A stretch of 64,000 nt of DNA from Vicinamibacteria bacterium (lineage in GTDB: Bacteria > Acidobacteriota > Vicinamibacteria > Marinacidobacterales > Marinacidobacteraceae): positions 2,328,422 through 2,392,421 of the forward strand of contig OZ220470.1 in assembly GCA_965115855.1 (NCBI GenBank). Direction: 5' to 3'. The notes beneath the pieces are model-generated. The model had not been told where the DNA came from. It ran no database searches and was given only the letters and a program-made list of their open reading frames with translations. Below, one piece after another: positions 1 to 60,288 of this stretch (its first letter is position 1; every line of letters starts with the position of its first letter). Position numbers and translations under genes: made by a program.

Positions 1-505
1 CGTCGTCGTGGAGGACCCGGACCACCGTGCTCTCGGTGGAGGGCAGCCCCTCGAAACTCTCCCGCTGGTAGAAATCCCCGATGGGACGCGCCCGCTCCCA
101 GGCCGCCTCGTCCAGCCATCCATCCATCGAGACCGGCTCGTCGGTCCACGCTGCGTGGATCTCCCACGTGCGGGCGGTGAGCGCGGCCACCCGCTCTTCC
201 CGGGACATGCCCCGGAGTTCCCCGGCGGAGGGACGGGTGGGACCGGGACGCGGCAGCCGCAGGGTGGCTGCTCCGTTCCCGGCGTCTGGAACCGGGGAGT
301 CCTTCGGATCCCGGAGTTGTCCCGGGGGGCCGCCCGCGAATCCCGGCGCCGAAACGAAAAGCACCATCACCAGCAGGACAGCGGCGGAAACCGGTGCTCC
401 AGCGGGGCGCATCAGGAAGCCCGCGAACGTATCAGAGGGTGCGGCTGCCCATCCGCGCTCCCCCGAAGGCTCCGCGGCCGGGTGACGGGGCCGCACCGGC
501 GCCGA

Positions 506-1480
506 TCAGCCGACGACGAAACCGGAGGCGATTTCCTGCAGCCACGGTTCGATGGCCTGGTAAAGGGTGTTCTGGCAATGGAACCGGAAGAGGTAGGTGC
601 GACCGCCGGCCGCCTTGTAGATGACCCATTCGAGGTAGTCGGCGAGCTGGGTTTCCACCGCGTAGAGAACCGCGATGCCGCCTTCCTCGAGAGTCTCGTG
701 CCGGAGCATCCGGAATCTGTCACCGAGGGTCTCCATCTCGGCTGCATAGAACGCTTCCAGAGTGATGTCGGGGAGCGCCCGGCGGACGGTCACGTCGAGG
801 GTTGCGTGCACTGTCGCTCCGCTCGGGTCCACCGCGAGTGCTCCGCTCCGGAAACCGACCACCAGGCTCTCGGCCCCCTGCTTCAGCACATGGGAGCGTG
901 TCCAGCTTTGCGGGTAGGGCACCACCAGCCCGAAGTCCTCGTCCTCCCAGGTGTCGAACAGATCCAGCGCCTCCACCGAAAAACCCTCGTACACGGTGTC
1001 CAGAATCGAACCATAGGCAATGATGCTGCGCGCCTCGCCGGTGGTGTATACCCCGAAGAGCGTTCCGGAGATCGCGGCGAGCAGCAGGCGGCCGGACTGG
1101 GGCCGGCGCTCCCACTCGAACGTCCAGACCATGCCCTCGCTCCCCTTGTGTTCCCAGCGGGATTCGGAGAGCACGTCGTGTTCCCCGATGTAGTACTGAT
1201 CCGCGATCCCGCGGAGCGTCTGTCCGGCGGGGAAGGGACCCGCCATCACCTGAACCTGGATGCCGTCCCGCTCCGGGATGTCCACCGAGGGGCCGGTGAA
1301 GGTGGCCATCCGGAACCCGCCCCGGGAGTCGGTGGCGGAGGACCAGCCACGTGGAAGCGGCAGGGATACACCGACTTCCGGGACATAGACGGTGATCAGA
1401 TCACTCGGGCCGGAAAGGTCCGGGACACAGCTTCCGGAGGCCAGCAAGACGGTGAGGGCGGCGGCGCCCCGAAGCTTCAT
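506..1480 (-). CDS. hypothetical lipoprotein (signal peptide MKLRGAAALTVLLASGSC, lipobox Cys)
   Basis: Long ORF 506..3091 is a run-through. The real gene starts at ATG 1478-1480, giving N-term MKLRGAAALTVLLASGSC (signal peptide plus lipobox). Well-composed ~325 aa product; no family recognised. Confidence 0.55.
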   Translation of the reverse strand: MKLRGAAALTVLLASGSCVPDLSGPSDLITVYVPEVGVSLPLPRGWSSATDSRGGFRMATFTGPSVDIPERDGIQVQVMAGPFPAGQTLRGIADQYYIGEHDVLSESRWEHKGSEGMVWTFEWERRPQSGRLLLAAISGTLFGVYTTGEARSIIAYGSILDTVYEGFSVEALDLFDTWEDEDFGLVVPYPQSWTRSHVLKQGAESLVVGFRSGALAVDPSGATVHATLDVTVRRALPDITLEAFYAAEMETLGDRFRMLRHETLEEGGIAVLYAVETQLADYLEWVIYKAAGGRTYLFRFHCQNTLYQAIEPWLQEIASGFVVG

Positions 1481-1482
1481 GG

Positions 1483-2943
1483 CTACTCCAACCGATAGTT
1501 CGGAGCTTCCTTGGTAACCACCACGTTGTGGGCGTGGCTCTCCCGCTGGCCGGCGCCGGTAACCCGGATGAACTCGGCGTTCTGCTGGAGCTCGGACACG
1601 GTGCGGCACCCGGCGTATCCCATTCCGGCGCGCAACCCGCCGTTCAACTGCTCCACCACCCCGCGAAGCGGTCCCTTGATGGGCACCCGCCCCTCGATGC
1701 CTTCGGGAACCAGCTTGGAAGCCGGCTGGCCGGCCTGGGCGTAGCGGTCCGCCGTCCCGGAATGCATGGCGCCGAGCGAGCCCATGCCGCGATAGGTCTT
1801 GAAGGCCCGGCCCTGGTACAGGATGGTCTCGCCCGGGCTCTCGTCGGTCCCGGCGAGCAGGTTGCCGACCATGACCGAATCGGCGCCGGCGCCGATGGCC
1901 TTCACCAGATCCCCGCTGAAGCGGATGCCGCCATCGGCGACGACGGGAACCTCGGCCACCGCACTGACCTCCATGATCGCGGAGACCTGCGGCATTCCGG
2001 TCCCCGCCACGACCCGGGTGGTGCAAATGGAGCCGGGCCCCATGCCTACCTTGAGACCATCGGCGCCGGCTTCGACCAGATCGCGAGCAGCATCGGCAGT
2101 GGCGATGTTCCCGGCCATCACATCCACCGAATCGGGGACTTCCCTCCGCAAGCGGGACACCGTGTCGATGCAGCCCCTGGTGTGTCCGTGGGCGGTGTCC
2201 ACCACGATCGCGTCCACGCCGCGTTCGACGAGGCCTCGGGCGCGTTCGAGCCCGGCGTCTCCCACGCCCACCGCGGCCGCGCAGCGGAGCCGGCCGAGAC
2301 CATCCTTGGTGGCGTTCGGGTAGTTCTGCGCCTTCTCGATGTCCTTGACCGACAGCAGACCAACCAGCGCCCCGTCCTCGTCCACGACCGGCAGCTTCTC
2401 CACCCGGCGCTCGTGAAGCGCCTGCCATGCGTCCTGGAGGGTGGCGCCGCGGGGGGCGGTCACCGGGTCGCGGGTCATCAGATCCGACACCCGGAGATCG
2501 CCTGCCGGTTCGAAACGGAGGTCCCGCCGGGTCAGGATGCCGACCAGCCGGGCGTCCCGGATGACCGGGAGACCGGAAATGCCGTGCCGCTTCATGAGCG
2601 CTCGCGCCTCGGAGATCGGGGCATCGGGGGCCACCGTGACCGGATCCACCACCATGCCGCTCTCCGACCGCTTCACCTTGGCGACTTCGTCCGCCTGCTC
2701 TTCCGGAGTCAGGTTCCGGTGGATCACCCCGATGCCTCCGACCTGGGCGATGGCGATGGCCAGCCGCGCCTCGGTAACCGTATCCATCGCCGCGCTCACG
2801 ACCGGCGCCGCCAACGGAATGCGCCGGCTGAACCGCGTCCCGAGGTCGGCATCGGCCGGAAGGACCTCCGAGTAGCGCGGGCGGAGGAGAACGTCGTCGA
2901 AGGTGAGGGTGACCGGAGGAGCCGCATGTGCCGTTTCGCTCAC
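1483..2943 (-). CDS. guaB: inosine-5'-monophosphate dehydrogenase
   Basis: IMPDH catalytic TIM barrel with tandem CBS domains ([20 protein letters not shown]..., active-site Cys loop). GTG start (VSETAH...) overlaps the secA stop by 4 nt. Confidence 0.9.
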
Positions 2944-5687
2944 GCCGCGTGACACCTCTTGTACTTCTTTCCGCTTCCGCAGGGACAGGGGTCGTTCCGC
3001 CCCACCTTCCTGCCCTTGCGGCGCAACGGGGTTCGGGAAGCGCTGCCTCCGGAAGCCGCGGGCGCCGGAGCGCCAGCCGGCGCCGCCGCAAGGGGGCCGG
3101 GAACGGCGGCGAGGTCCGGACCGGACCGGGAGGTCGCCGCCGGCCGGAGCGCCGGCGCGGGGCGCACCGCCTTCAACACATAGAGCAGCCGTATGGCCTC
3201 CGACTCGATCCGCTCCCACATCCCGCCGAACATGGCGAAGGATTCCTTCTTGTATTCGACAAGGGGGTCCCGCTGTCCGTATCCGCGAAGGCCGATGCCC
3301 TGCTTGAGCTGGTCCATCGCATGGAGATGGTCCTTCCACTGGGAGTCCACCACATGGAGCAGGATGTACCGCTCCTGGTTGCGCATCAGGTCGGCGCCGA
3401 ATTCCTCCTCCTTCGCGGCATACCGGCGATGCACCGCAGTGGTCAGGAAATCCAGCAGCTCGTCCCGACCCAGATCCTCGAGACGACTCCCGTTGTCCGG
3501 CTCGGGCACGAAGGCGAACTGGCCCCGCAGCCCGTCCCGCAGTGCGCCCAGGTCCCAGTCGTCGGGGTCCGCCTCCTTCGACGCGTGGAGATCGACCAGC
3601 CCGTCCACCGCGTCCGACGCGAGCTGGAGCACATAGTCGCGCTGATCCTTGCCCTCGAGGATCTGGCGGCGCAGCCGATAGATGGCCACCCGCTGCTTGT
3701 TCATCACGTCGTCGTACTCGAGCAGGTGCTTCCGGTAGGAGAAGTTCTGACCCTCGACCTGTTTCTGTGCCCGCTCGATCGCCCTGGTGACCATCCCGGC
3801 TTCGATGGGAACGCCTTCCTCCATGCCGAGCCGCTCCATGATCCCGCTCATCCGGCCGCTGCCGAAGATGCGCATGAGGTCATCCTCGAGGGACAGGAAG
3901 AAGCGGGAACTGCCGGGGTCGCCCTGGCGCCCGGCCCGCCCGCGCAATTGGTTGTCGATGCGACGCGACTCGTGACGCTCGGTCCCGACGATGTGGAGGC
4001 CGCCCAGGGACACGACTTCGTCGTGCGTGGCCCGGGTCTCGTTCCGGGCGGCGTCCAGCGCCCCCTCCCACTGGGCTCCGGTGGCCTCGGTCCAGTCCAC
4101 GTCCTCCTTGCGCAGCCGAGCCTTCGCGATTTCCTCGGGACTGCCGCCCAGCAGGATGTCGGTACCCCGGCCCGCCATGTTGGTGGAGATGGTGACCACG
4201 CCTCGCTGGCCCGCCTGGGCCACGATCTCCGCTTCGCGCTGGTGGTACTTGGCGTTCAGCACCATGTGCGGGATGCGCTTCCGGTTCAGCAGCCGCGCCA
4301 GTCGTTCGCTCTTCTCGATGGAGGTGGTCCCGACCAGCACCGGGCGTCCTTCCTGGTGATGGCTCCCGATTTCCTCCACGATGGCGTTCAGTTTTTCCCG
4401 TTCGGTCCGATACACCAGATCGGGATGCTCGAGACGCACCAGGGGCCGGTTGGTCGGGATCGGAACAACCTCCAGATCGTAGATCTTCTCGAACTCGGCT
4501 GCCTCGGTCTCCGCGGTGCCGGTCATTCCGGCGAGTTTTCCGTACATGCGGAAGTAGTTCTGGAAGGTGATGGTGGCAAGCGTCTGATTCTCACGCTCGA
4601 TGGTTACGCTCTCCTTGGCCTCGACCGCCTGATGAAGGCCATCGGACCAGCGGCGTCCGGGCATGAGCCGCCCGGTGAACTCGTCCACGATCACGACTTT
4701 CCCGTCCTTGACCGTATAGTCCTTCTCGCGCTTGTAGAGCGCATGGGCCCGGAGCGCTTGCAGCAGATGGTGGAGAAGCGTCATGTTCTCCGGGTCGTAC
4801 AGGTTGTTTACGCGAAGCAGGTCTTCCGCCTTGGGAACTCCCTCCTCGGTAAGAGAAACACTGCGGGATTTCTCGTCCACCGTGTAGTCCACATCCCGCC
4901 GCAGTCTCGGGATGATCCGATCCACGGTGTAGTAGAGGTCGGTGGACTGCTCCGCCGGGCCGCTGATGATGAGGGGCGTGCGCGCCTCGTCGACGAGGAT
5001 CGAGTCCACCTCGTCCACGATGGCGTAGTGGAAGAGTTTCTCGACCTCCTTCCCGTCCCGGTCCGTTTTCGTCGCGGGATGGATCCGGTGGACGAAGTTC
5101 TCCATGCGGAACTTCATGTTGTCCCGGAGATAGTCGAAGCCGAACTCGTTGTTCGTCCCGTAGGTGATGTCGGCGCCGTAGGCCCGCCGCCGGTCGGCGT
5201 CGGCGAGATCGTTCTGGATCACGCCGACCTCGAGTCCGAGGAAGCGATAGATGCGTCCCATCCAGTCGGAGTCGCGGCGAGCCAGGTAGTCGTTCACGGT
5301 GACGACGTGAACACCCTTGCCCGACAACGCGTTCAGGTACGCGGGCAGGGTCGCCACCAGGGTCTTGCCTTCCCCGGTCTTCATTTCGGCGATCTTTCCC
5401 CGGTGGAGGATTACGCCGCCGAGGAGCTGCACATCAAAGTGCCGCATCCCGAGCGTGCGGCGGGAAGCCTCCCGGCAGGCGGCGAACGCCTCCGCAATCA
5501 GGCTGTCCAGCGGCTCGCCGTTCGCGATCCGCTCCCGGAATCCGGCGGTCAGGCCGCCGAGCTCGGCATCGGACCTGTCCCGGTACTGCGATTCGAGCGA
5601 ACCGATTTTCGCCACCAGCGGCCGCAATCGCCTAAGTTCACGGTCCGATTTCTTGCCGACCACGCGGGTGAGCAGGCTCTGTATCAT
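2940..5687 (-). CDS. secA: preprotein translocase ATPase SecA
   Basis: 915 aa. DEAD-like motor domains, helical scaffold domain and C-terminal zinc-binding tail [13 protein letters not shown]. Confidence 0.95.
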
Positions 5688-20032: not shown

Positions 20033-23000
20033 TCACCAGCCGAGGGCGCCCTGGAGCGCGAGTCGCCGGTCCCGCGTTCCCATGACGCTCTCGCGCCGCG
20101 CCCCTTCGAGGTCCAGCCGGAAGAGCGGACCCAGCTGGTAGCGGGCGCCGAGCCGCAGGGCCCGGCCCATCTCCGCCATCTGGAGGCCCGCATACGGGGT
20201 CAGGACCCCGGCCAGGGGAAGCCCGAACCCGTGGCCGCCCTCCGCCGTCAGCCGCCGCTCCGCCCGCAACCCCGCCATCGGGGTCGGGGAGAACGCCGGG
20301 GTCCGGTCGAACATCTGCTGCAGGCCGCTCTCCGTGCCCCCCTGCGACGGCGCCACCTTCAGGAACGGACCCCGTCCCTCATCGCCGGGATCGAGGCTCA
20401 CCATCGCCCCCACGCCCCACTCACGGCGTTCCGTCTCGGCGTGCGTGACCAGCGCCCGGCTACGCACTTGCAATGTCAGTCCCGGGTCCCGCATCCGGTA
20501 CGCCACGCTTCCGCCGACCTCGACCCCCGCGCCCTCCACCGCGTCGCCCCGGTCGTACAGAACCCCCACCTCCAGCGCCGGCGTCAGCGTACCCGTGCCC
20601 AGCGTCCGCTCGTGCGAGCCTTCCAGCATCAACCGCAACCGGCTGGTGTGCGCCGTCAGGCCCTCGAGGCCCGACTCCGAGGCCGTGCTGAAGCGCGCGT
20701 ACGAACCCTCGCCCTTGACCGCCAGCCGGGTCATGCCCCCCGCCAGCAGATCCGCATCCCGGAACAGCACGCTCCGACCGCCCACCGCACCGCTCGCAAA
20801 CGACATCCCCGCGTCCCGCTTGTTCATTCCCGTCTCGGTCACTCGCACCTCGCCCCGACCGTAGCCCCCGCTCGCCCACAGGTTCGACCCGTCGGGCGCC
20901 AGCCACGCCAGGTAGGGGTGCGCCGAGGTCAGTCCCGCCTCGTAGATCCCGGCCACCGAACCGGTCTCGGCGGCGCCGCTCGCATCGAAGTCGCCGGTCG
21001 CGTGCGACACCACGATCCCCGCGAGGAAGTCCGAACCGATCCGCGCGTCCGCGCCCACGTGCGCGGACCACAGTCCCCCGTCCCACGAGACCTCACGGTC
21101 GGTCCCGGAAAGCGACAGCCGTCCGCCCCGGCCCCAGACGCCGATCGCCGGGAATCCGCCCTCCTCCTCTTCCTGGCCGAGCGTCATGCCGAACGCCGCC
21201 CCGTCCAGCACGTCGGCGAGCCGCAACGGCCGGTCGGTCCGCCCGCCGAATCCGGTCCGATCTCCTAACGCTCCCGTCCGGCCGTCGTGCCGCAGGTTGA
21301 GCACTCCTTCGGAAGAGGCGGACATCGGCATCGCGCCCAGCCGCAGCTCGCGCGACGCGAACCCCGCCGACACCGACTCGATCCGGTCGGCAACCGCCCC
21401 CAGCGTCTGCGTCGCGAACCCCGCCGCGAACTGCGGAAGGATCACCTCGTTCAACCGATTCGCACGACCCAGCGCCTCCGCCGACGTCGTGTTCCGCACC
21501 GTCACCGACACCGACTCCGCCGTCACCCCGCCGTAGTCCCCGCCGGACACCCGGTGGCTCACCGTCGCCCTCATGTCCGCCAGCGAGTCCTCGTCCTCCA
21601 CCCCGCTCACCGTCACCGTCTGCGGGGTGTCCCAGTTCGCGGCGGTAAAGGAGAGCGCCTCCGAGACCGTCGCCGCTCCCCCGTCGCTGCTCGCCGGGGT
21701 GACCGTCACCGGACCCGTCGGTTCGCTGGTGAGCACCACCGTGTAGGTCCCGCTTCCGTCCTCGTCCACCGTCAGTTCGGTCGGGGTCACCGTCACCCCC
21801 GCCTTGTCGTTGTCGGTCACCCGCACCGACACCGCATCGGCCTTCACCGAGTCGTAGTCCCCGCCCGAAACCTCGTGGGTCAGGGTCGCGGTATCCGCCA
21901 CCGCGTCGGCGTCCTCCGCCGCGCGGACCGTCACCGTCTGCGCCGTGTCCCAGTTCGCGGCGGTGAACCCGCGCGACGCCGGCGCCACCGTGATGTCCCC
22001 CGCCGCGCCAGCGATCGCCACCGTCACCTCCGCCGTCGGCTCGCTGGTCAGCGCCACCGTGTAGGTCCCGCTTCCCCCCTCGTCCACCATCAGTTCGGTC
22101 GGGGTCACCGCAACCCCCGCCTCGTCGTTCTCGGTCACCCGCACCGACACATCGGCGATCGAAACCGAACCGTAGCCCCCGCCCGACGCCTCGTGGGTCA
22201 AGGTGGCTGTGTCCGCCACCGCGTCGGCGTCCTCCGCCGCCCGGACCGTCACCGTCTGTGGCGTGTCCCAGTTCGCCGGGGTGAACGTCAACGACGACGG
22301 TGAAACCGTCACATCCCCGGACGCGCCCGACACCGTGATCGTGACGTTCCCCGAAGGACGCCGGTCCAGAACCACCGTGTAGACGGCGCCGCCGCCCTCC
22401 GACACCCGCAGCGTCGCCCGCGACACCGTCACGCCTTTCGTCCCCGTGGGAGTCGTCGAGCCGCCGCCGGAACCGCCACCACCTCCTCCGCCGCCACTGG
22501 CGGTCGGCGCCTGCGACGTCGCCGTTACCCGGATCACAATCTCCTCGGTGTCCGAGTTGCCGTTCCCGTCCGACGCCGTCACCTCCATCGTGTATGTCCC
22601 TACCGTTGTCGTCGTGAACATCAAACGCGCCTGGTTCAGCGCCGTGCCGCCGGGAATCGCCGGCGCCGTCTCGCCCGCCTTGCGCGTCCAGGCGTAGGTG
22701 ATCGGGTCGTTGTCCCCGTCCGTCGCCACCGCCGTGATGTCCACCGCCTGGCCGGCCTTCACTGTCCGGTTCGCGATCCCCGACAGCACCGGCGACTCGT
22801 CGTCATCCTCGATCGTCCCCGTCGCCGTCGCGTCCGTGATCGTCGTCCCCGCCGATGCATCGGACAGGGTCACCGTGAACGTCTCGTTGTTCTCGTCGAG
22901 ATCGTCGTTCGTCACCGACACCGTGACCGTCGCGCTGCCCGCGTTCGCCGCGACCGTCGCCGCGGTCGCCGGCGTCACCGCGGTGAAGTCCGTGCCCGCC

Positions 23001-24665
23001 GTCGCCGTGTCGCCGCTTTCCGCCGTCACCGTGTACTTGAACGACGCCTCCGACGAGGGCGCAGGAGAAGCCGTCACCGTGAACGTGAACGTCCCGCCCT
23101 CCGCCGCCGTCACGTCCCCGATGCTCAGCGAGGTCGGGACGTTCTTCAGCGTGCCGTCCGCCGTGCGGTCGGCCCCCCGCACATAGCCGGTCCCGTTGCG
23201 CAGGGTGATCCGGTAGGCCTCCGCGCCTTCCACCGTCGAGTCGAGGATCGTCGGGATCGTCACCGTCCCGGTCGTGCTCGCGGTGCTGCCGAAACTTGCG
23301 GTGAAGTTCCTCGGACCGAGCGAACCCCGTATGTCCGCCGCAGTGAAACCGTTCGAACTCCGCGCCGCCAGCCGCAGACGCACCTTCAGGTCTCCGGTCA
23401 GCGCCTTGTCCGACGTGACCGTCAGGCTGATCGCCGTCCCCTCGGTCACCGCCGCCGGATCATTCAGAAGCTGCAGGACCGGCGTCGTGTCGGTCACCGT
23501 CACGTCCACATCGTCGATACCGAGCTCGTTGCCGTAGTCGGCGTCGGAGCTCGCCGACGAATGCGTCAAGGTCGCCGTGTCGTCCTCCGCGTCCGCGTCC
23601 GTCCCCGCGTTCACCGTGATCGTCTGCGCCGTGTCCCAGTTGGATGTCGTGAAGGTCAGCGGCGAACCCGCCACCGTTACATCGCCCGACGCGCCGCCCA
23701 CCGTCACGGTCACGCTCGCCGAGGGTCTCCTGTTCAGCTTCACCGTATAGGTGTTGCTGCTCCCCTCTTCAACCGTCAGCGACGACGGCGAGATAGTCAC
23801 CCCGGCGGGAGGGTTCGGTGTCGCCGTCACCTCGTTGGACATGGGAGCAAGGATGGCGGTCGGGACACCCGGAGGGGGGGTGGTCGTGCGCCCGACCTGG
23901 AAGCTGTACGCGGTACCGTTGGTCAGACCCGTCACCGTGTGGGTTCGTTTTGTCTTCCCGCCGGGAATGTCGTACATGCTGCCGCTGCCCCCTCCGGCGC
24001 CTTTCTTCTGAAGGTACACCCAGGAGAGGAAGAACTCCGGGTCCGCATATGTCCAGTCAAGTCTCACCCGTCCGTCACCCGGCGTGGCGGAAAGGACGAT
24101 GGCGCTGGCCATCGGCGTCACGGTGACTGCATCCGAGACCACTCCGTAACCGACGTTGTTCACCGCGCGGATCTTGAAACTGTACGTTCTGCCGTTCCTC
24201 AGACCCGTCACCCGGTAACTCTCCGTCGTTGCGCTGGCCCCGGTCATGGTGATCCACGACCCGTAGCGCCCCGTGCCCGACTTCTGCCGGTAATCCCATC
24301 CGGTAATGCTGGGATCACTTGGAATCGCCCACGTCAACAATACGCTTCCAGAGCCCGGAGTGGCGCTGACTCTCGTTGGCTTGACAGGTACTTGCGCTTG
24401 CTGTCCGATGATACCGGCATCCCTCTGGTTGGTCCGAGCCAACCCGGCGGCGTTCCGTGCCCCCGCATCCGGCGCAAGGACGACGGCCAGCGAGATCGTA
24501 GTGAGTGCCGCGACTCGGCGGCGAGCGTTTCTTCTACCGGGCGCCCTCAGCCCCGCGTCTGGATTTCGGGGGGGGGGGGGGGGGTAGAGAGTCGCGTTGC
24601 GCCGGACCGAAACCAGCGGGGCCCAACACCCGCGTCACGCGCTGCGGCCTTGCTGTCACTTCCAT
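20033..24665 (-). CDS. large autotransporter (type Va) adhesin-like protein
   Basis: Built from FN3 domains, five ~100-aa passenger repeats and a C-terminal beta-barrel. The C-terminal ~300 aa match autotransporter beta-domain architecture and end in ...LALQGALGW. Passenger: 2 FN3 domains, then five repeats with signature NWDTxQTVTVxAxxDADxxDDTATLTH. A signal-peptide-like region RRRVAALTTISLAVVLAPDAGA lies upstream of the first annotated codon. The proposed true start is ATG 24665 with SD AGGAG 7 nt upstream, but it is out of frame at the current 17-nt homopolymer. Confidence 0.7.
24568..24584. repeat. G17 homopolymer (C17 on the coding strand) in the autotransporter leader
   Basis: Direct count of 17 consecutive G. 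The upstream ATG frame and the signal-peptide frame differ by 1 nt across the tract. Confidence 0.9.
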
Positions 24666-25159: not shown

Positions 25160-26598
25160 GGCTCTATTGAATTTCGAGTGGGTTATGCGAGGTGAGGGTT
25201 GAGCTTGGAGAAGTCGAGTTTTCCGGCGATAAGAAAGAAAACGGTGCGGATGGTGCGGAAGGAACGATACCCCCTGGCTTTCCGCTTGGCGGATTGGAAG
25301 AGGCCATTGAGGGCTTCTATGAACCCGTTGGTCTGGCGGGTTCGGGCCCACGCGGTGATGCCGTCGAAGTGTCTTCGGATCATCCGGGCGACGGCTTTCA
25401 TGGGTTCGATCCGGGATCGATTCACGTTGGTGCACCACTGCTGGAGCATGGCCCGCATGACATGGACTTGCTTGCGGTGGAGGATGGCACGGAGTTGCTC
25501 CCGGTACCGCCAAGCTCGAGTGGTGCGCTTCCCAGCGGTCTGTGCGATCAGCGCGTTGAGTGCGGCGCGTTGGTTACGGCTGAGGTGTGTCGGATTCTTG
25601 AGCAAGGTCCAGCGCATGCCCTTGATCCCCGGATCGACCCGCTGCTCGATGCGTCTGGTTTCGTCGAGGGCACTCGAGGCGTGGGCGACGACATGGAACT
25701 TGTCGAAAGTGATTTGGGCATGGGGCAAATGCTTCGCAACCCCCTTGATGAAAGCAGGGGACATGTCGATCGAGACGAACCGGATCGCTTCGGGAGCGCC
25801 ACCCTGTACCGCCAAGTTCCGGGCGAATTGTCCGACCGTGTCGGCCCCCCGGCCCTCCCCGACAAACAGCACCCGGCGCTTGCGGGCGTCGGCGGCAACG
25901 GTGACATAGGCGTGCCCCCGGGCCCGGGAGGTCTCGTCGATTGCGACGGCGCGAACGTCGCCCTGGTCGTCCTCCGCGGAGGCGAGTTCCACGTATTGGT
26001 TGCAGATGGTCTGAACCCGGTGTGGAGAAATCTTGTTCAACCGTGCGACCGCGGCGAAGGGCATTTCCCGACTCATGACGATCACCAACGCTTCGAAGAG
26101 CGCAGTGAACCCGGAGACCTGACCCGTCCAGGGCGTGGTGACCAGCGCGATCCGTCCGTCGGGCAGACGGACTCTCGGAACCCTCGCTACCACTTCGCAT
26201 TCATACTGGAAGAAGTTGAGGTGGCGATAGCGCTTGGTCTTGGTGTCGTGGATGGGGTGTGTACCTTCGTGGTCCTTGTGAGGAAAGCGGGCGCCACGCT
26301 GAAAGTCGATATGGATGATCAGCTTGCGATCACACTCGACAAACTTCACGCTTTCGACGAACCAAGGTTCGATGAGGCCAAGGGCGGTTGCGAAGATGCG
26401 GTGGATATCTGTCATGAGATGCTTCTCCTATGCAGAGATGGGCCGAAAAGCAGCATTCTGCCGCTTTTCGAGCCCGAACCAAGCATGCCCGTCGCGGGTC
26501 CGTGCGTCAAGGGTTCGCTCCGCCGGGCTACGCCCGCCCTTGACACCCGGCCCCCCGACGGGCTTCCCGCCCGTACCCACTCGAAATTGAGTTGAGGC
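25160..26598 (-). mobile_element. ISL3-family insertion sequence, copy 1 (1439 bp)
   Basis: Identical to the copy at 56000..57438. Imperfect ~24-bp terminal IRs (GGCTCTATTGAATTTCGAGTGGGT / GCCTCAACTCAATTTCGAGTGGGT). 8-bp TSD cgaaattc at 25152-25159 and 26599-26606. Confidence 0.85.
25183..26415 (-). CDS. ISL3-family transposase
   Basis: 410 aa, identical to the ORF at 56023..57255. Its conserved blocks match the ISL3 (IS1001/IS1096/IS1165-type) family. Confidence 0.85.
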   Translation of the reverse strand: MTDIHRIFATALGLIEPWFVESVKFVECDRKLIIHIDFQRGARFPHKDHEGTHPIHDTKTKRYRHLNFFQYECEVVARVPRVRLPDGRIALVTTPWTGQVSGFTALFEALVIVMSREMPFAAVARLNKISPHRVQTICNQYVELASAEDDQGDVRAVAIDETSRARGHAYVTVAADARKRRVLFVGEGRGADTVGQFARNLAVQGGAPEAIRFVSIDMSPAFIKGVAKHLPHAQITFDKFHVVAHASSALDETRRIEQRVDPGIKGMRWTLLKNPTHLSRNQRAALNALIAQTAGKRTTRAWRYREQLRAILHRKQVHVMRAMLQQWCTNVNRSRIEPMKAVARMIRRHFDGITAWARTRQTNGFIEALNGLFQSAKRKARGYRSFRTIRTVFFLIAGKLDFSKLNPHLA

Positions 26599-35694: not shown

Positions 35695-35771
35695 CGGGGC
35701 GTGGCGCAGTCTGGCAGCGCGCCTGCTTTGGGAGCAGGAAGCCGGAGGTTCGAATCCTTCCGCCCCGACCA
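35695..35771 (+). tRNA. tRNA-Pro (anticodon TGG), CCA encoded
   Basis: Hand-folded cloverleaf: 7-bp acceptor CGGGGCG/CGCCCCG, anticodon stem CCTGC/GCAGG with loop TTTGGGA, T-loop GGTTCGAATCC. Confidence 0.85.
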
Positions 35772-35808
35772 GGTGATGGGCGCCCGTCATGGCGCGAGGC
35801 GTCGCAAC

Positions 35809-35881
35809 GCGCCAGTAGCTCAGTGGACAGAGCGGCGGCCTTCTAAGCCGATGGTCGGGGGTTCAAGTCCTCCCTGGCGCG
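35809..35881 (+). tRNA. tRNA-Arg (anticodon TCT)
   Basis: Acceptor GCGCCAG/CTGGCGC, D-stem GCTC/GAGC, anticodon loop CTTCTAA, T-stem GGGGG/CCTCC with TTCAAGT loop. Confidence 0.85.
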
Positions 35882-35895
35882 CCGGCGCACCGGCT

Positions 35896-35968
35896 GGTGG
35901 ATGTAGCTCAATGGCAGAGCACCGGATTGTGGTTCCGGGGGTTGGGGGTTCGAGTCCCCTCATCCACC
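35896..35968 (+). tRNA. tRNA-His (anticodon GTG) with extra 5' G(-1)
   Basis: Acceptor GTGGATG/CATCCAC preceded by G. Anticodon stem CCGGA/TCCGG with loop TTGTGGT. Confidence 0.8.
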
Positions 35969-36042
35969 CCGCCCGGCGGTGAGCGCGGGGCCCGGTGCGC
36001 GGCCGGGGCATCGGGGTGCGAGTCGCGTGGCGGGATCGAGGT

Positions 36043-47630: not shown

Positions 47631-49066
47631 CCGGGATCGTCTTCGGCGTCTACCTCGCCACGATCTTCCTGATCGGGTGGGTGGCGCTCCGCCGCACGCG
47701 AAACGAGAGCGATTACTGGATTGCCGGGGGCCGGCTCGGCTGGTTCCTCGGGGGGGCGACGCTGGCCGCCACCCACGCGAGCGCCGGAACCTACATCGGG
47801 ACCGTGGGAGTGATCCACGCGGTGGGGTGGGAATTCGCCTGGCTCGTCCTGTTCATCCCCCTGAGCTACTGGTTCATGGCGGGGGCGCTGGCGCCCCGCT
47901 TCGCCCGCACGCGGGAACTCACCCTGCCGGCATTTCTCGAGCGCCGCTACTACAGCCGCCGCGCCCGCGCCCTCGCCGCGGTGGTGATCCTCATCGCCAC
48001 CACCGTGTACATCCAGGCGCAGGTCCTCGCCGGCGGGCTCATCGCCCAGACCGTGTTCGGCATCCCGCCGACCTGGGGCATGGCCGTCTTCACCGTGATC
48101 CTGCTGGCCTATACCGCGGTCGGCGGCATGGTGGCGGTGGTCTGGACCGACCTGGTGCAGCTGGTGGTCATGGTCGTCGGCGCGCTGATCGCGGTTCCCA
48201 TGGTCTGGCGGATACTGGATGGCCCGGCGGCCCTGTTCGCCGCCGTCGAGACCCTGCGGCCGGATGCCTTCGCGTTCGGGCAGCTGCCCGGCCTGTTGCT
48301 GTTCACGATGGGCATCTCGTTCCTGCTGGGGGGAATCGCCACCCCCGAGAAGCTGGTGCGGCTCCATGCGATGCGCGACCAGCGCTCCATCCGCCGGGGA
48401 CTGCTGCTGGCCATGGCGGTCGCCTCCGGCGTGAATCTGCTGGTGTTCCTGCTGGCGCTCGCGGCGATGGGGCTCTTTCCGGTGTTGCCGAGCGGGGATC
48501 TCGCCATGCCGCTGATCGCCTCGGCGGCGCTGCCCCCGGTGCTCGGAACGATCCTGCTCGCTGCCATCGTGTCGGCGATCATGTCCACGGTGGATTCGCT
48601 GCTGCTGGTGGCCGGATCGGCCCTTGCGCACGACATCCTCGGTGCGTTGCGCCCGGGCGCCTCCGACCGGGCCCGACTCGCCGCCGCCCGACTCGGCATC
48701 CTGCTGGTCGGGGCGGCGCCGCTGGTCCTGATCCTGAGCGGCGTGGGAGAGGGGGATCTGGTGCAGTTCATCGTGCTGTTCTTCACCGCGATCATGGCCA
48801 GCGCCTTCTTCGTGCCGGTAGTGGTGGGCGTCTACTGGCGGCGACTGACCCGCGAAGGGGCGGTGGCGGCGATGGTCGCGGGAGTGGCCACCGTATTCGG
48901 ATGGCAGGCGGATATCCTGCCGTGGACCGGGTTCGGACCAGACTTGGTGCATCCGGCGGCGCCGGGAGTGCTGGTCTCGCTGCTCGTCGGCGTGTTGGTG
49001 AGCCGAGCGACCCCGCCGCCGCCGGAGTCCGCGCTCGCGCCGTATTTCGGAGGGACGGATCGATGA
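47626..49066 (+). CDS. sodium:solute symporter (SSS family)
   Basis: ~480 aa, 13 TM helices, with SSS conserved blocks. Start codon is ambiguous (non-ATG, CTG/ATC region at 47626-47640). Confidence 0.85.
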
Positions 49067-49437
49067 AGGTGAAGGGACTCGGAGTGCGGGTTGTCGGCGG
49101 CATGGGCCTGCCGCCCTTCGGCGTGATCGTGAGCCGGGCGCCACTGCCGGAGTCCGCGCTCGCGCCATATTTCGGAGGGACGGATCGATGAAGGTGAGGG
49201 GACGCGGGGTGCGGGTTATCGGCGGCATGGGCCTGCCGCCTGTCGGCGTGATCGTGAGGCGGGCACCGCTGCCGGAGTCCGCGCTCGCACCGTATTTCGG
49301 AGGGACGGGTCGATGAAGGTGAGGGGACTCGGGGTGCGGGTTATCGGCGGCATGGATCTGCCGCCTGTCGGCGTGATCGTGAGCCGGGCGCCGCTGCCGG
49401 AGTCCGCGCTCCGGCCCTGTTTCGGGAGGACCGGCCG
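49063..49437 (+). repeat. 3 tandem copies of a 125-bp unit spanning the SSS-stop/SDR-start junction
   Basis: Period exactly 125 bp, starting at 49063, 49188, 49313 and 49438. Units are diverged, not identical. Each carries GGAGGG, an ATG and a 42-aa ORF whose TGA overlaps the next ATG. Confidence 0.9.
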
Positions 49438-50229
49438 ATGAAGCTCGAGGGACGTGGAGTTCTCGTCACGGGCGGCGCCCGCGGCATGGGCCTGCTGCTC
49501 GCGCGCATGGCGCAGGAGCGCGGAGCCCGGGTGGCGATCTGGGATACCCACGACAGCGCCCTCGCTGCTGCCAGCGGGGAACTCGGCGGCGCGGTCGCTG
49601 CCGACGCGGTGGACGTTGGGTGTCCGGAAGCGGTGGGTCTCGCAGCCGAACGGCTTCCCTTCGCGGTGGACGTGCTCGTGAACAACGCCGGCGTGGTCTC
49701 CGGCAAGCGCTTCCCCGAGCTGACGCCGGAGGAGGTCCGCCGTACCCTGCGCGTGAATCTGGAAGCGTTGTTCTGGACTACCCGCGCGTTTCTTCCCGGC
49801 ATGGTGCGCCGTGGTGAGGGCCATCTCGTGACCATGGCCTCCGCCGGCGGTCTTGTCGGCGTCCCGGCGCTCTCCGACTACTGCGCGTCCAAGTTCGGAG
49901 CGGTCGGGTTCCACGAATCGGTTCGCGCCGAACTGCGGCACACGGCGCCCGGCATCGGGACCACCCTGGTGTGCCCCTTCTTCGTGAACACCGGAATGTT
50001 CGCGGGAGTGCGGACCCGGTTCCCGTTCCTGCTCCCGATTCTCGATCCGGGCGCGGTCGCCGCGGCGACTGTCCGCGCCATCGAGCGGAATCGGGCGACG
50101 GTGGTCCTCCCCTGGTTCGTCCACTCGCTCAAGCTGCTCCGGCTGCTGCCGTCGGCCTGGCTGGATCCGATCGCCGCCTTTTTCGGCATCCACGCTTCGA
50201 TGAGAAGCTTCACCGGCCGCCGACGTTGA
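49438..50229 (+). CDS. short-chain dehydrogenase/reductase (SDR)
   Basis: TGGARGMG cofactor motif, NNAG, and catalytic YxxxK (YCASK). Confidence 0.85.
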   Translation: MKLEGRGVLVTGGARGMGLLLARMAQERGARVAIWDTHDSALAAASGELGGAVAADAVDVGCPEAVGLAAERLPFAVDVLVNNAGVVSGKRFPELTPEEVRRTLRVNLEALFWTTRAFLPGMVRRGEGHLVTMASAGGLVGVPALSDYCASKFGAVGFHESVRAELRHTAPGIGTTLVCPFFVNTGMFAGVRTRFPFLLPILDPGAVAAATVRAIERNRATVVLPWFVHSLKLLRLLPSAWLDPIAAFFGIHASMRSFTGRRR

Positions 50230-50308: not shown

Positions 50309-51073
50309 ATGCGTTTCCTTTTCCGTGCAGGTCTCCTGTTCCTGCTGGCCGGAGCTTTCGCGCTTGCCGGATGCGGCGACGACGACGATCCGGTCACCCC
50401 GGCTCCGGCCCCCGCTCCGGCTCCGGCGCCAGCCCCGGCTCCGGCACCAGCGCCAGCCCCCGCTCCCGATGATCATGACCACGACGAGGAGATGGTGATG
50501 TACACGTTCGGCGAGCCCATGCGCAAGATCGGCCCCAGTGTCGAGGGCTCCCTTCCCGAAGGCACGAAATACGCCGGTTCGCTGGCCTTGGTCGCGCACT
50601 CCGCCGACTCGATGTTGTTCGAGAAGGGCGGCATGGCGTCAGCCGGGTTGAAGACGCTGGCCGAGACCGGGGATGCCACCGACTTCCTTGCCGAAGCCGA
50701 GGCGGCGGACGCCACCGTGATCGCCAGGACCCAGGCCGAGCTGCTCGCCTTGTTCCTCAAGGAGGATCCTTCCATCGAGGTTCATCACGACAAGCCGTGC
50801 CTCACCTATGCCCAGATGATGTCGCCGACTCCCGACTGGTTCATCGGGGTCTCCAAGTTCTGTCTGGTGGACGAGAACGACGAATGGATGGAGGAAGCGA
50901 CCTTCGATCTGGTCGTCTACGACGCCGGCACCATGGATGGGGACGAGTTCGTCAAGGGCATGGGCCCGGCGACCGACCCGCAGGGCATGATCGAGCACCT
51001 CAACCTGGATCCCTGGTTCAAGGCTCCGGCGGTCGCTCAGACGCACACCCTGATGCTCAAGCACGACCACTAG
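50309..51073 (+). CDS. lipoprotein with (PA)n linker and spondin_N-like domain
   Basis: Lipobox LALAGC, (PAPA)x12 linker, His/Asp-rich segment. C-terminal domain with DWFIGVSKFCL resembles spondin_N. Confidence 0.55.
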   Translation: MRFLFRAGLLFLLAGAFALAGCGDDDDPVTPAPAPAPAPAPAPAPAPAPAPAPDDHDHDEEMVMYTFGEPMRKIGPSVEGSLPEGTKYAGSLALVAHSADSMLFEKGGMASAGLKTLAETGDATDFLAEAEAADATVIARTQAELLALFLKEDPSIEVHHDKPCLTYAQMMSPTPDWFIGVSKFCLVDENDEWMEEATFDLVVYDAGTMDGDEFVKGMGPATDPQGMIEHLNLDPWFKAPAVAQTHTLMLKHDH

Positions 51074-55999: not shown

Positions 56000-57438
56000 G
56001 GCTCTATTGAATTTCGAGTGGGTTATGCGAGGTGAGGGTTGAGCTTGGAGAAGTCGAGTTTTCCGGCGATAAGAAAGAAAACGGTGCGGATGGTGCGGAA
56101 GGAACGATACCCCCTGGCTTTCCGCTTGGCGGATTGGAAGAGGCCATTGAGGGCTTCTATGAACCCGTTGGTCTGGCGGGTTCGGGCCCACGCGGTGATG
56201 CCGTCGAAGTGTCTTCGGATCATCCGGGCGACGGCTTTCATGGGTTCGATCCGGGATCGATTCACGTTGGTGCACCACTGCTGGAGCATGGCCCGCATGA
56301 CATGGACTTGCTTGCGGTGGAGGATGGCACGGAGTTGCTCCCGGTACCGCCAAGCTCGAGTGGTGCGCTTCCCAGCGGTCTGTGCGATCAGCGCGTTGAG
56401 TGCGGCGCGTTGGTTACGGCTGAGGTGTGTCGGATTCTTGAGCAAGGTCCAGCGCATGCCCTTGATCCCCGGATCGACCCGCTGCTCGATGCGTCTGGTT
56501 TCGTCGAGGGCACTCGAGGCGTGGGCGACGACATGGAACTTGTCGAAAGTGATTTGGGCATGGGGCAAATGCTTCGCAACCCCCTTGATGAAAGCAGGGG
56601 ACATGTCGATCGAGACGAACCGGATCGCTTCGGGAGCGCCACCCTGTACCGCCAAGTTCCGGGCGAATTGTCCGACCGTGTCGGCCCCCCGGCCCTCCCC
56701 GACAAACAGCACCCGGCGCTTGCGGGCGTCGGCGGCAACGGTGACATAGGCGTGCCCCCGGGCCCGGGAGGTCTCGTCGATTGCGACGGCGCGAACGTCG
56801 CCCTGGTCGTCCTCCGCGGAGGCGAGTTCCACGTATTGGTTGCAGATGGTCTGAACCCGGTGTGGAGAAATCTTGTTCAACCGTGCGACCGCGGCGAAGG
56901 GCATTTCCCGACTCATGACGATCACCAACGCTTCGAAGAGCGCAGTGAACCCGGAGACCTGACCCGTCCAGGGCGTGGTGACCAGCGCGATCCGTCCGTC
57001 GGGCAGACGGACTCTCGGAACCCTCGCTACCACTTCGCATTCATACTGGAAGAAGTTGAGGTGGCGATAGCGCTTGGTCTTGGTGTCGTGGATGGGGTGT
57101 GTACCTTCGTGGTCCTTGTGAGGAAAGCGGGCGCCACGCTGAAAGTCGATATGGATGATCAGCTTGCGATCACACTCGACAAACTTCACGCTTTCGACGA
57201 ACCAAGGTTCGATGAGGCCAAGGGCGGTTGCGAAGATGCGGTGGATATCTGTCATGAGATGCTTCTCCTATGCAGAGATGGGCCGAAAAGCAGCATTCTG
57301 CCGCTTTTCGAGCCCGAACCAAGCATGCCCGTCGCGGGTCCGTGCGTCAAGGGTTCGCTCCGCCGGGCTACGCCCGCCCTTGACACCCGGCCCCCCGACG
57401 GGCTTCCCGCCCGTACCCACTCGAAATTGAGTTGAGGC
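56000..57438 (-). mobile_element. ISL3-family insertion sequence, copy 2 (1439 bp), inserted in the MTase-HNH gene
   Basis: 100% identical to 25160..26598. 8-bp TSD atccaaaa at 55992-55999 and 57439-57446. The frame bookkeeping (1447 nt, congruent to 1 mod 3) fits the flanking ORF frames. Confidence 0.9.
56023..57255 (-). CDS. ISL3-family transposase (copy 2)
   Basis: Identical 410-aa ORF. Confidence 0.85.
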   Translation of the reverse strand: MTDIHRIFATALGLIEPWFVESVKFVECDRKLIIHIDFQRGARFPHKDHEGTHPIHDTKTKRYRHLNFFQYECEVVARVPRVRLPDGRIALVTTPWTGQVSGFTALFEALVIVMSREMPFAAVARLNKISPHRVQTICNQYVELASAEDDQGDVRAVAIDETSRARGHAYVTVAADARKRRVLFVGEGRGADTVGQFARNLAVQGGAPEAIRFVSIDMSPAFIKGVAKHLPHAQITFDKFHVVAHASSALDETRRIEQRVDPGIKGMRWTLLKNPTHLSRNQRAALNALIAQTAGKRTTRAWRYREQLRAILHRKQVHVMRAMLQQWCTNVNRSRIEPMKAVARMIRRHFDGITAWARTRQTNGFIEALNGLFQSAKRKARGYRSFRTIRTVFFLIAGKLDFSKLNPHLA

Positions 57439-60104: not shown

Positions 60105-60180
60105 GCGCCTGTAGCTCAGTGGATAGAGCGCTTGCCTCCGGAGCAAGAAGTCAGAGGTTCGAGTCCTCTCAGGCGTACCA
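60105..60180 (+). tRNA. tRNA-Arg (anticodon CCG), CCA encoded
   Basis: Acceptor GCGCCTG/CAGGCGT, D-arm TAGCTCAGTGGATAGAGC, anticodon stem CTTGC/GCAAG with loop CTCCGGA, T-loop GGTTCGAGTCC. Confidence 0.85.
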
Positions 60181-60196
60181 GTGTTTTCCGCGGGGC

Positions 60197-60270
<74 letters not shown>

Positions 60271-60288
60271 CCCCAGACTGGGACTTCG

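What the first reader, a model, noticed from the sequence alone, without database searches (positions are those of the whole stretch)
49022..49500. 125-bp tandem array at a gene junction encodes three translationally coupled 42-aa mini-ORFs between the SSS transporter and the SDR
The unit spans the last 16 codons and stop of the symporter (...PPESALAPYFGGTDR*), the overlapping ATG (cgATGAag) and the first ~17 codons of the SDR (MK[LV][EK]G.GV.V.GG.GMGL). It is present in 3 extra copies with exact 125-bp phase (49063, 49188, 49313; the real SDR start is 49438). Copies differ by several SNPs (MKVKGLGVRVVGGMGLPPFGVIVSRAPLPESALAPYFGGTDR, MKVRGRGVRVIGGMGLPPVGVIVRRAPLPESALAPYFGGTGR, MKVRGLGVRVIGGMDLPPVGVIVSRAPLPESALRPCFGRTGR), so they are not an assembly stutter. 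Each keeps GGAGGG plus ATG and terminates with TGA overlapping the next ATG, a relay of stop/start couplings that should tune ribosome delivery to the SDR. It could also be a hotspot for copy-number variation. I know of no named element like this.
Basis: seen in the sequence. Interest (0 to 1): 0.65.

Follow-up and report, generated by a model that had tools for sequence, protein, structure and literature searches.

The report
Tandemly duplicated gene junction, probably neutral
A 125-bp piece spanning the end of a transporter gene and the start of the next gene has been duplicated three extra times in this one bacterial genome; it is real but is most likely a tolerated duplication scar rather than a regulatory device.

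Summary
Tandem Repeats Finder reports a 125-bp array of 3.5 copies at 90% identity (49014-49451). Three 42-aa ORFs start at 49063, 49188 and 49313, and each is joined to the next start by an ATGA overlap behind a strong Shine-Dalgarno site.

Six related genomes (SDR 70-86% identical) keep the same operon with one transporter/SDR junction and a 4-nt overlap. None has an array. The mini-ORFs match only themselves among 5.8 billion proteins.

The ends of the duplicated segment carry an 8-nt microhomology, GCTGCTCG, in the same codon phase. It predicts a 140-bp founder unit, which equals 125 plus two slippage deletions of 9 and 6 nt.

I found no signal for RNA structure, an Rfam family, a promoter or a terminator. 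Evidence for selection on the peptides is not significant.

Best reading: an old, lineage-specific microhomology-mediated tandem duplication that later expanded. It is tolerated because both genes stay intact and every unit carries the SD and stop/start module. Nothing here tests whether it tunes SDR translation.

The closest named analogue is the mycobacterial MIRU, which also has coupled mini-ORFs with -4 spacing, but this array is not a member of that family. Interest is low to moderate.

The parts
47681..49066 (+). Sodium:solute symporter (SSF) gene, intact. Its last ~25 codons are the parent of the tail half of the repeat unit.
   Evidence: Pfam PF00474, E = 8e-62. 88-90% identical to orthologues in L001, L006 and L008.
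48979..48986 (+). Left microhomology arm GCTGCTCG, in the symporter (codon phase xxG CTG CTC Gxx).
   Evidence: It lies exactly where similarity of the units to the symporter tail begins.
48987..49062 (+). Partial unit 0: the true symporter tail, homologous to the tail half of each unit. It carries 6 extra nt in its (CCG)n run.
   Evidence: Alignments. Only 2-3 differences in the last 44 nt against units 1 and 2.
49049..49054 (+). SD GGAGGG, 8 nt upstream of mini-ORF 1. The same motif recurs at 49174-49179 and 49299-49304.
   Evidence: Sequence. Duplex energy -10.0 kcal/mol with a canonical anti-SD.
49063..49191 (+). Unit 1 (49063-49187) and mini-ORF 1, 42 aa. ATGA overlaps at both ends. Chimera of SDR head and symporter tail.
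   Evidence: Called as a 42-aa protein on the source contig (one of P0122/P0123).
49108..49121 (+). Novel join CTGCCGCCCTTCGG (SDR head to symporter tail) in unit 1. The equivalent joins lie at 49233-49246 and 49358-49371.
   Evidence: alignment against the predicted join CTGCTGCTCGTCGG.
49188..49316 (+). Unit 2 (49188-49312) and mini-ORF 2, 42 aa.
   Evidence: Identical to P0121.
49313..49441 (+). Unit 3 (49313-49437) and mini-ORF 3, 42 aa. This is the most diverged unit, especially its tail.
49424..49430 (+). SD GGGAGGA serving the real SDR start.
   Evidence: Duplex energy -10.3 kcal/mol.
49438..50229 (+). Short-chain dehydrogenase/reductase gene, intact. Its first 19 codons are the parent of the head half of the unit.
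   Evidence: Pfam PF00106, E = 4e-39. 100% identical to P0001 and 86% to P0002.
49494..49501 (+). Right microhomology arm GCTGCTCG, in the SDR, in the same codon phase as the left arm.

Best explanation
The array is the product of a lineage-specific, microhomology-mediated tandem duplication across the symporter/SDR gene junction, followed by expansion. It is most likely a near-neutral, tolerated structure rather than a selected device.

Inferred history:
1. The ancestor had one junction with a 4-nt ATGA stop/start overlap.
2. Slippage or template switching between two in-phase GCTGCTCG octamers, one 84 nt upstream of the junction ATG in the symporter and one 56 nt into the SDR, duplicated a 140-bp segment.
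3. Two slippage deletions shortened a copy to 125 bp: 9 nt between GGCGGC and CGCGGC, and 6 nt in a (CCG)n run.
4. Unequal recombination amplified that copy to three full chimeric units.
5. Concerted evolution kept the inner copies and the tails similar, while the edge copy and the unconstrained SDR-like heads diverged.

Why it is tolerated (inferred):
- A duplication with endpoints in two adjacent genes leaves one intact copy of each gene.
- Because both arms are in the same codon phase, each chimeric fragment is an ORF that starts at the copied ATG and stops at the copied TGA.
- Every unit therefore carries a complete SD plus ATGA termination-reinitiation module.
- Ribosomes leaving the symporter can be handed on ORF by ORF, or can load de novo at any of the four equally strong SDs. 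The real SDR start keeps its own SD.
- The expected effect on SDR output is small, at most a mild attenuation per relay step.
For: Shown by tool results:
- The array and ORFs are real.
- Six relatives have a single (A/G)TGA junction and no array: L001 (Candidatus Marinacidobacterium sp.), L006/L007, L008, L009 and L010, with SDR identity 70-86%. They share the conserved operon M19 dipeptidase, hypothetical, SSF, SDR.
- The mini-ORFs hit only the three ORFs of the source 3.0-Mb contig among 5.8 billion proteins. Two pattern scans of JGI metagenomes found nothing.
- The 8-nt microhomology sits exactly at the inferred breakpoints, in identical codon phase, and predicts a 140-nt unit equal to 125+9+6. 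Random window pairs share an 8-mer this way 1.3% of the time.
- All four starts have SDs of about -10 kcal/mol.
- No RNA-structure signal: z-scores run from -0.3 to +1.0 per unit and +2.2 for the whole array. No Rfam hit at E<=1. No promoter or terminator motif inside the array.
- Third-codon-position excess among the 21 variable sites is 11/21, with p = 0.056 (uniform null) or 0.15 (GC-weighted null).

From the literature:
- MTD followed by expansion is reported as the dominant origin of tandem repeats in bacteria (bioRxiv 10.64898/2026.02.28.708716; PMC8639346).
- A coupled ORF at -4 spacing is proposed to let MIRUs insert with minimal effect on expression (PMC12548453).
Against: - pN/pS among copies is 0.42 in the mini-ORF frame against 1.15-1.54 in the other two forward frames. 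This could reflect some constraint on the peptides or on the frame, although an antisense frame gives the same 0.41 and the numbers are small.
- The array is not young. Copy heads differ from the real SDR head at 9-11 of 30 positions, comparable to synonymous divergence from the nearest relative (pS 0.40, dS 0.56). A purely neutral 125-bp tandem array surviving that long against recombinational deletion is somewhat unexpected.
- The SD change in unit 3 (GGAGGG to GGGAGG) preserves an SD through two adjacent substitutions.
- The microhomology is read from present-day flanks. The joins themselves have since changed at 3-4 of 14 positions, so the breakpoint inference is indirect.
Confidence: 0.7

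Rival explanations
1. Selected translational relay or attenuator. The chain of three coupled mini-ORFs is maintained because it sets the SDR:symporter translation ratio, each reinitiation step being less than 100% efficient. Copy-number changes by unequal recombination would then provide a tunable, reversible expression knob.
For: All ATGA overlaps and strong SDs are intact in every unit. The -4 overlap at this junction is conserved across relatives down to 70% identity, so coupling here is probably functionally relevant. The array is old yet all ORFs remain open. pN/pS is 0.42 in frame.
Against: The array is found in one genome only and all six relatives manage with a single junction. At 67% GC, 42-codon ORFs stay open by chance, and every frame in the region has long ORFs. 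With about 22 substitution events over 375 nt, the chance of missing all 12 ATGA bases is roughly 0.5 (my estimate counts). Each start has its own strong SD, so de novo loading could bypass any relay effect. No copy-number polymorphism data exist.
Confidence: 0.15
2. The 42-aa chimeric peptides are themselves functional small proteins, a case of new small-gene birth from a junction duplication.
For: Gene callers called them as genes on the source contig (P0121-P0123). They have strong SDs and an in-frame pN/pS below 1.
Against: There are no homologues anywhere else and no Pfam hit. The SDR-like half has lost 3 residues of the parental TGGARGMG segment (which I read as the glycine-rich nucleotide-binding motif) and carries many radical replacements relative to its parent. 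The three copies differ from one another at 5-8 of 42 residues. The codon-position signal is not significant.
Confidence: 0.05
3. Assembly artefact: an expanded or collapsed repeat, or a mix of strains stitched together.
For: The genome is a metagenome-assembled chromosome. Its single 3,016,700-bp contig is the only record, and I could not inspect reads.
Against: The SDR-head to symporter-tail join does not exist in a single-junction genome, so at least one duplication must be present in the reads. The three joins and units differ by 10-14% and carry shared 9-nt and 6-nt deletions relative to the flanks, which sequencing error or stutter cannot produce. Relatives from the same data series are complete circular contigs at 37-238x coverage, which I read as long-read assembly, and such reads would span a 0.5-kb array.
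Confidence: 0.03
4. A mobile or dispersed intergenic repeat (MIRU-, REP- or MITE-like), a structured regulatory RNA, or a diversity-generating retroelement template/variable repeat pair.
For: The architecture resembles MIRU arrays: tandem intercistronic units with ORFs overlapping the neighbours (PMC12548453, PMC3184786).
Against: Both halves of the unit are demonstrably derived from the two flanking genes. No other copy exists in the window, and no other mini-ORF relative exists on the 3-Mb contig or elsewhere. There is no folding signal or Rfam match. Differences between copies are not adenine-specific in any one copy, and no copy could serve as a template (positions). The syntenic neighbours in relatives include no reverse transcriptase.
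Confidence: 0.02

Closest known systems
Microhomology-mediated tandem duplication (MTD) expanding into a tandem repeat or minisatellite (PMC8639346; bioRxiv 10.64898/2026.02.28.708716)
   Same: A segment that is single-copy in relatives and flanked by a short direct repeat (8 nt here) is duplicated head to tail and then expanded to several copies.
   Different: The copies are old and diverged (10-14% between copies, about 30% against one parental flank), whereas the described events are recent and reversible. The segment spans a gene junction, so each copy is a chimeric ORF.
Mycobacterial interspersed repetitive units (MIRU), for example the 77-bp units between senX3 and regX3 (PMC4213456, PMC3184786, PMC12548453)
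   Same: Tandem units inside a polycistronic operon. Each unit holds a short ORF whose ends overlap the neighbouring ORFs with -4 spacing, which is thought to leave downstream expression largely unaffected. Periods of 77, 53 and 125 bp are all 2 mod 3, as a chain of ATGA overlaps requires (my arithmetic). Copy number varies between MIRU strains.
   Different: MIRUs are a dispersed, apparently mobile family of about 40-50 loci per genome, with units of 40-100 bp, restricted to mycobacteria and unrelated to the flanking genes. This array is a single locus in an Acidobacteriota-like genome and is built from the ends of its own flanking genes.
Translational coupling by termination-reinitiation at overlapping stop/start codons (review PMC12548453)
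   Same: ATGA overlaps with an upstream SD between co-oriented ORFs. Short ORFs whose only role is to deliver ribosomes to a downstream gene are a described idea.
   Different: Here three such short ORFs are in series and are duplicates of the junction itself. Coupling has not been measured.

Membership tests
MTD-derived tandem repeat | Head-to-tail copies with a constant period | tested here: met
   Period 125, 3.5 copies, 0% indels.
MTD-derived tandem repeat | The segment is single copy in the ancestral or related state | tested here: met
   Six relatives have one junction.
MTD-derived tandem repeat | Identical microhomology arms at the two ends of the duplicated segment | tested here: met
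   GCTGCTCG at 48979 and 49494, located at the inferred breakpoints. Chance is about 1.3%. The arms are inferred from present-day flanks, and the joins have since mutated.
MTD-derived tandem repeat | Copy-number polymorphism or reversibility in the population | not testable with these tools
   There is only one assembly of this genome and no reads are available.
MIRU | Tandem units within an operon whose ORFs overlap the flanking ORFs at -4 spacing | tested here: met
   Four ATGA junctions. The feature is as described in PMC12548453 and PMC3184786.
MIRU | Dispersed multi-locus family, apparently mobile (about 40-50 loci per genome) | tested here: not met
   No other copy in the 64-kb window. 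Only the three local ORFs exist on the 3-Mb contig or anywhere in the protein database. The rest of the genome's DNA was not scanned directly.
MIRU | Unit unrelated to the flanking coding sequences (an inserted element) | tested here: not met
   The unit aligns to SDR head plus symporter tail.
MIRU | Mycobacterial host and 40-100 bp unit | tested here: not met
   The closest relative is Candidatus Marinacidobacterium, Acidobacteriota. The unit is 125 bp.
Termination-reinitiation translational coupling | Co-oriented ORFs with overlapping stop/start and an upstream SD | tested here: met
Termination-reinitiation translational coupling | Downstream translation depends on translation of the upstream ORF | not testable with these tools
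   This needs reporter fusions or ribosome profiling.
Diversity-generating retroelement TR/VR pair | Mismatches confined to adenines of one template copy, with a reverse transcriptase nearby | tested here: not met
   Variable sites involve all bases, and no copy holds A at every A-containing variable site. The syntenic neighbourhood has no RT.
Structured cis-regulatory RNA | Stable, conserved secondary structure or an Rfam match | tested here: not met
   z-scores near 0 per unit and +2.2 for the array. No Rfam hit at E<=1.

The most novel reading that the evidence does not exclude
The array is a selectively maintained ribosome relay that arose from a gene junction. On this reading it would be an independent, non-mobile origin of a MIRU-like intercistronic minisatellite. 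Its copy number would set the SDR:transporter ratio, and its chimeric ORFs would exist only to pass ribosomes on. It would show that coupled mini-ORF arrays can arise by junction duplication and then be kept for dosage control.
Probability: 0.1. Interest if true: 0.5.

Novelty: new member of a known kind. Interest (0 to 1): 0.22.

Why it matters
As it stands, this is a clean natural example of how a microhomology-mediated duplication across two translationally coupled genes can be harmless. Both genes stay whole, and each extra unit automatically carries its own SD and stop/start overlap.

It also offers a plausible route by which MIRU-like coupled mini-ORF arrays or new small ORFs could arise without a mobile element. 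If copy number were shown to modulate SDR output, it would be a simple natural dial for operon stoichiometry and a ready-made test bed for serial termination-reinitiation. None of that is shown here.

Tried and rejected
- **Source genome look-ups.** Exact-protein look-ups for the SDR, P0001, mini-ORF 2 and the symporter all returned nothing on record. The source contig and its reads or strain variants could therefore not be examined.
- **Metagenome scans.** Two JGI scans, one for the novel join and one for SD-ATGA plus the diverged head, both found 0 hits.
- **Structured RNA.** Folding z-scores are near zero and there is no Rfam hit. Rejected.
- **Promoter or terminator inside the array.** None found.
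- **DGR template/variable repeat.** The substitution pattern is not adenine-specific. Rejected.
- **Dispersed repeat family.** No other copies in the window or among proteins. Rejected.
- **Selection on the peptides.** pN/pS is 0.42 in frame, but the third-position excess is not significant and an antisense frame gives the same ratio. Inconclusive.
- **More distant symporter homologues.** The Gemmatimonadota loci L002-L005 gave no SDR hit in the DNA held for them (L004 and L005 have little or no sequence downstream of the symporter), so they are uninformative about the junction.
Full report
**1. Observation**

The region 48800-49700 was read directly. Tandem Repeats Finder reports one array at 49014-49451: period 125, 3.5 copies, 90% matches, no indels, score 692. 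Nothing comparable occurs elsewhere in the 64-kb window. A 54-nt probe from the unit matches three times with at most 2 mismatches, against none expected in shuffles.

The flanking genes are intact:
- A sodium:solute symporter at 47681-49066 (Pfam PF00474, E = 8e-62).
- A short-chain dehydrogenase at 49438-50229 (PF00106, E = 4e-39).

Between them lie three 42-aa ORFs starting at 49063, 49188 and 49313. All four gene boundaries read ATGA. Units differ from each other at 12, 14 and 17 of 125 positions.

**2. What the unit is made of**

Aligning the units to the flanks shows that each unit has two halves. The head derives from the SDR and the tail from the symporter.
- Head: parental MKLEGRGVLVTGGARGMGL, now MKV[RK]G[LR]GVRV[IV]GGM[GD]L, with a 9-nt deletion.
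- Tail: parental GVLVSRATPPPPESALAPYFGGTDR*, with a 6-nt deletion in the (CCG)n run.

The two parental sequences share the octamer GCTGCTCG at 48979 and 49494. This is exactly where similarity to one parent ends and similarity to the other begins. Both copies sit in the same codon phase (xxG CTG CTC Gxx). Recombination or slippage between them in a single-junction ancestor predicts a 140-nt unit, and 140 - 9 - 6 = 125. Random pairs of 24-nt windows at the same spacing share an 8-mer only 1.3% of the time.

Because the arms are in phase, the chimeric fragment is automatically an ORF running from the copied ATG to the copied TGA. By chance alone that would happen one time in three.

**3. Comparison with relatives**

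The SDR is 100% identical to P0001, on a single 3,016,700-bp contig. The nearest relatives fall into two groups.
- L001 (Candidatus Marinacidobacterium sp.; Acidobacteriota, Vicinamibacteria), L006/L007 and L008 have SDR identity of 80-86% and symporter identity of 88-90%.
- L009 and L010 have SDR identity of 70-73%.

All of them keep the operon M19 dipeptidase, hypothetical, SSF, SDR. All have one junction with a 4-nt (A/G)TGA overlap and no array.

So the -4 overlap is ancestral and conserved, and the array is specific to the lineage of this genome. A search with mini-ORF 2 against 5.8 billion proteins returned only the three mini-ORFs of the source contig. Two pattern scans of JGI metagenomes returned nothing. 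The source genome is not in the gene-position index, so copy-number variation could not be examined.

**4. Age and mode of evolution**

The window and L001 SDR genes are 82% identical at the nucleotide level, with pS 0.40 and dS 0.56. Several patterns stand out.
- Heads of the copies differ from the real SDR head at 9-11 of 30 positions.
- Tails of units 1 and 2 differ from the real symporter tail at only 2-3 of 44 positions.
- The tail of unit 3, next to the real SDR, differs from the symporter tail at 10 of 44 positions.
- Copies differ from each other by 10-14%.

I read this as four successive steps, by inference:
1. An old first duplication.
2. Free divergence of the unconstrained SDR-like head, while the real head is held by selection. 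MKLEGRGVLVTGGARGMGL is identical in L001.
3. Later amplification of one diverged 125-bp copy.
4. Concerted evolution that includes the poorly constrained extreme C-terminus of the symporter. That C-terminus varies among relatives (GR*, GGQEG*, P*, GKRAGGSP*). The edge unit is the least homogenised.

In-phase identical runs between neighbouring units reach only 30 nt. This should slow RecA-mediated loss, an inference from general knowledge of minimal homology requirements.

**5. Tests for function**

- **RNA structure.** Per-unit z-scores range from -0.3 to +1.0, and the whole array folds worse than shuffles (z = +2.2). There is no Rfam match at E<=1.
- **Transcription signals.** No sigma-70-like promoter or intrinsic terminator lies in the array.
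- **Translation signals.** All three mini-ORFs and the SDR have SDs of about -10 kcal/mol against a canonical anti-SD, 8 nt from the ATG. The SDR starts of L001 and L008 have weak SDs (-2.5 and -5.6), so there coupling presumably matters more.
- **Selection on the peptides.**
  - pN/pS is 0.42 in the mini-ORF frame against 1.15-1.54 in the other two forward frames, but an antisense frame gives the same 0.41.
  - Of 21 variable sites, 11 fall at third positions. That gives p = 0.056 under a uniform null and p = 0.15 when weighted by GC content per codon position.
  - At 67% GC, long open frames are common in every frame, so openness of 42 codons is not evidence.
  - The result is inconclusive, with no positive evidence for selection.

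**6. Mechanism**

The best-supported account is a microhomology-mediated tandem duplication of a gene junction that then expanded. Recent work describes this as the main source of tandem repeats in bacteria (bioRxiv 10.64898/2026.02.28.708716; PMC8639346).

It is tolerated for two reasons. Both genes stay whole, and each unit carries the SD and ATGA module, so ribosome hand-over, or fresh loading, still reaches the SDR. [quoted passage not shown] Two identical 1,439-bp ISL3 copies in the window show recent IS activity. That is compatible with a genome that tolerates mildly deleterious insertions, though the argument is only circumstantial.

I put it at about 0.15.

**7. Comparison with known systems**

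The array meets the tested criteria of an MTD-derived tandem repeat. It works like a MIRU array in architecture: an intercistronic tandem of coupled mini-ORFs with a period of 2 mod 3. It is not a MIRU, for four reasons:
- It is not dispersed.
- It is built from its own flanks.
- Its unit is larger.
- Its host is non-mycobacterial.

**8. Verdict**

The feature is real and neatly explicable, but probably ordinary in kind. Its particular outcome, a chain of chimeric coupled mini-ORFs, is uncommon and instructive. Novelty: new member of a known kind. Interest: 0.22.

Noticed in passing
window 25160-26598 and 56000-57438: Two 100% identical 1,439-bp direct repeats 30.8 kb apart. Each encodes a 410-aa ISL3-family transposase on the - strand (PF01610, E = 1e-66). 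This indicates a recently active IS.
   Followed up: partly
window 21497-22382, with weaker copies near 23580 and 26943: A 318-bp-period repeat with 2-3 copies at 76-83% identity. It looks like repeated domains of a large protein, and similar segments recur up to 5 kb away.
   Followed up: no
window 50309-51073: The gene after the SDR encodes a Spondin_N-domain protein (PF06468, E = 6e-25). It has an N-terminal Pro-Ala linker built from 6/18/24-bp repeats at 50397-50466. A similar low-complexity repeat lies at the corresponding place in L001, and L008 has a Spondin_N gene there.
   Followed up: no
window 49040-49062 compared with L001, L006 and L008 junctions: The symporter of this genome ends in ...YFGGTDR*. 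The codons for that tail create a strong SD (GGAGGG). L001 ends ...YFGR* with almost no SD (-2.5 kcal/mol). The extreme C-terminus of the symporter varies in every relative.
   Followed up: partly
window 49063-49437 compared with 49438-49494 and 48987-49062: The copies show asymmetric divergence. Their SDR-like heads are 30-37% diverged from the real SDR head. The tails of units 1 and 2 are only 5-7% diverged from the real symporter tail, and unit 3's tail is 23% diverged. I interpret this as concerted evolution plus selection on the real SDR head, but that is not proven.
   Followed up: partly
window 35695-35970 and 60105-60272: Two tRNA clusters: Pro-Arg(tct)-His and Arg(ccg)-Lys.
   Followed up: no
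L006-L010, locus coordinates about 1-3860: The operon M19 dipeptidase, small hypothetical, SSF symporter, SDR is conserved, with a 4-nt stop/start overlap at SSF/SDR, down to about 70% SDR identity. In L008-L010 an extra 31-36-aa ORF is called between the hypothetical and the SSF gene.
   Followed up: no
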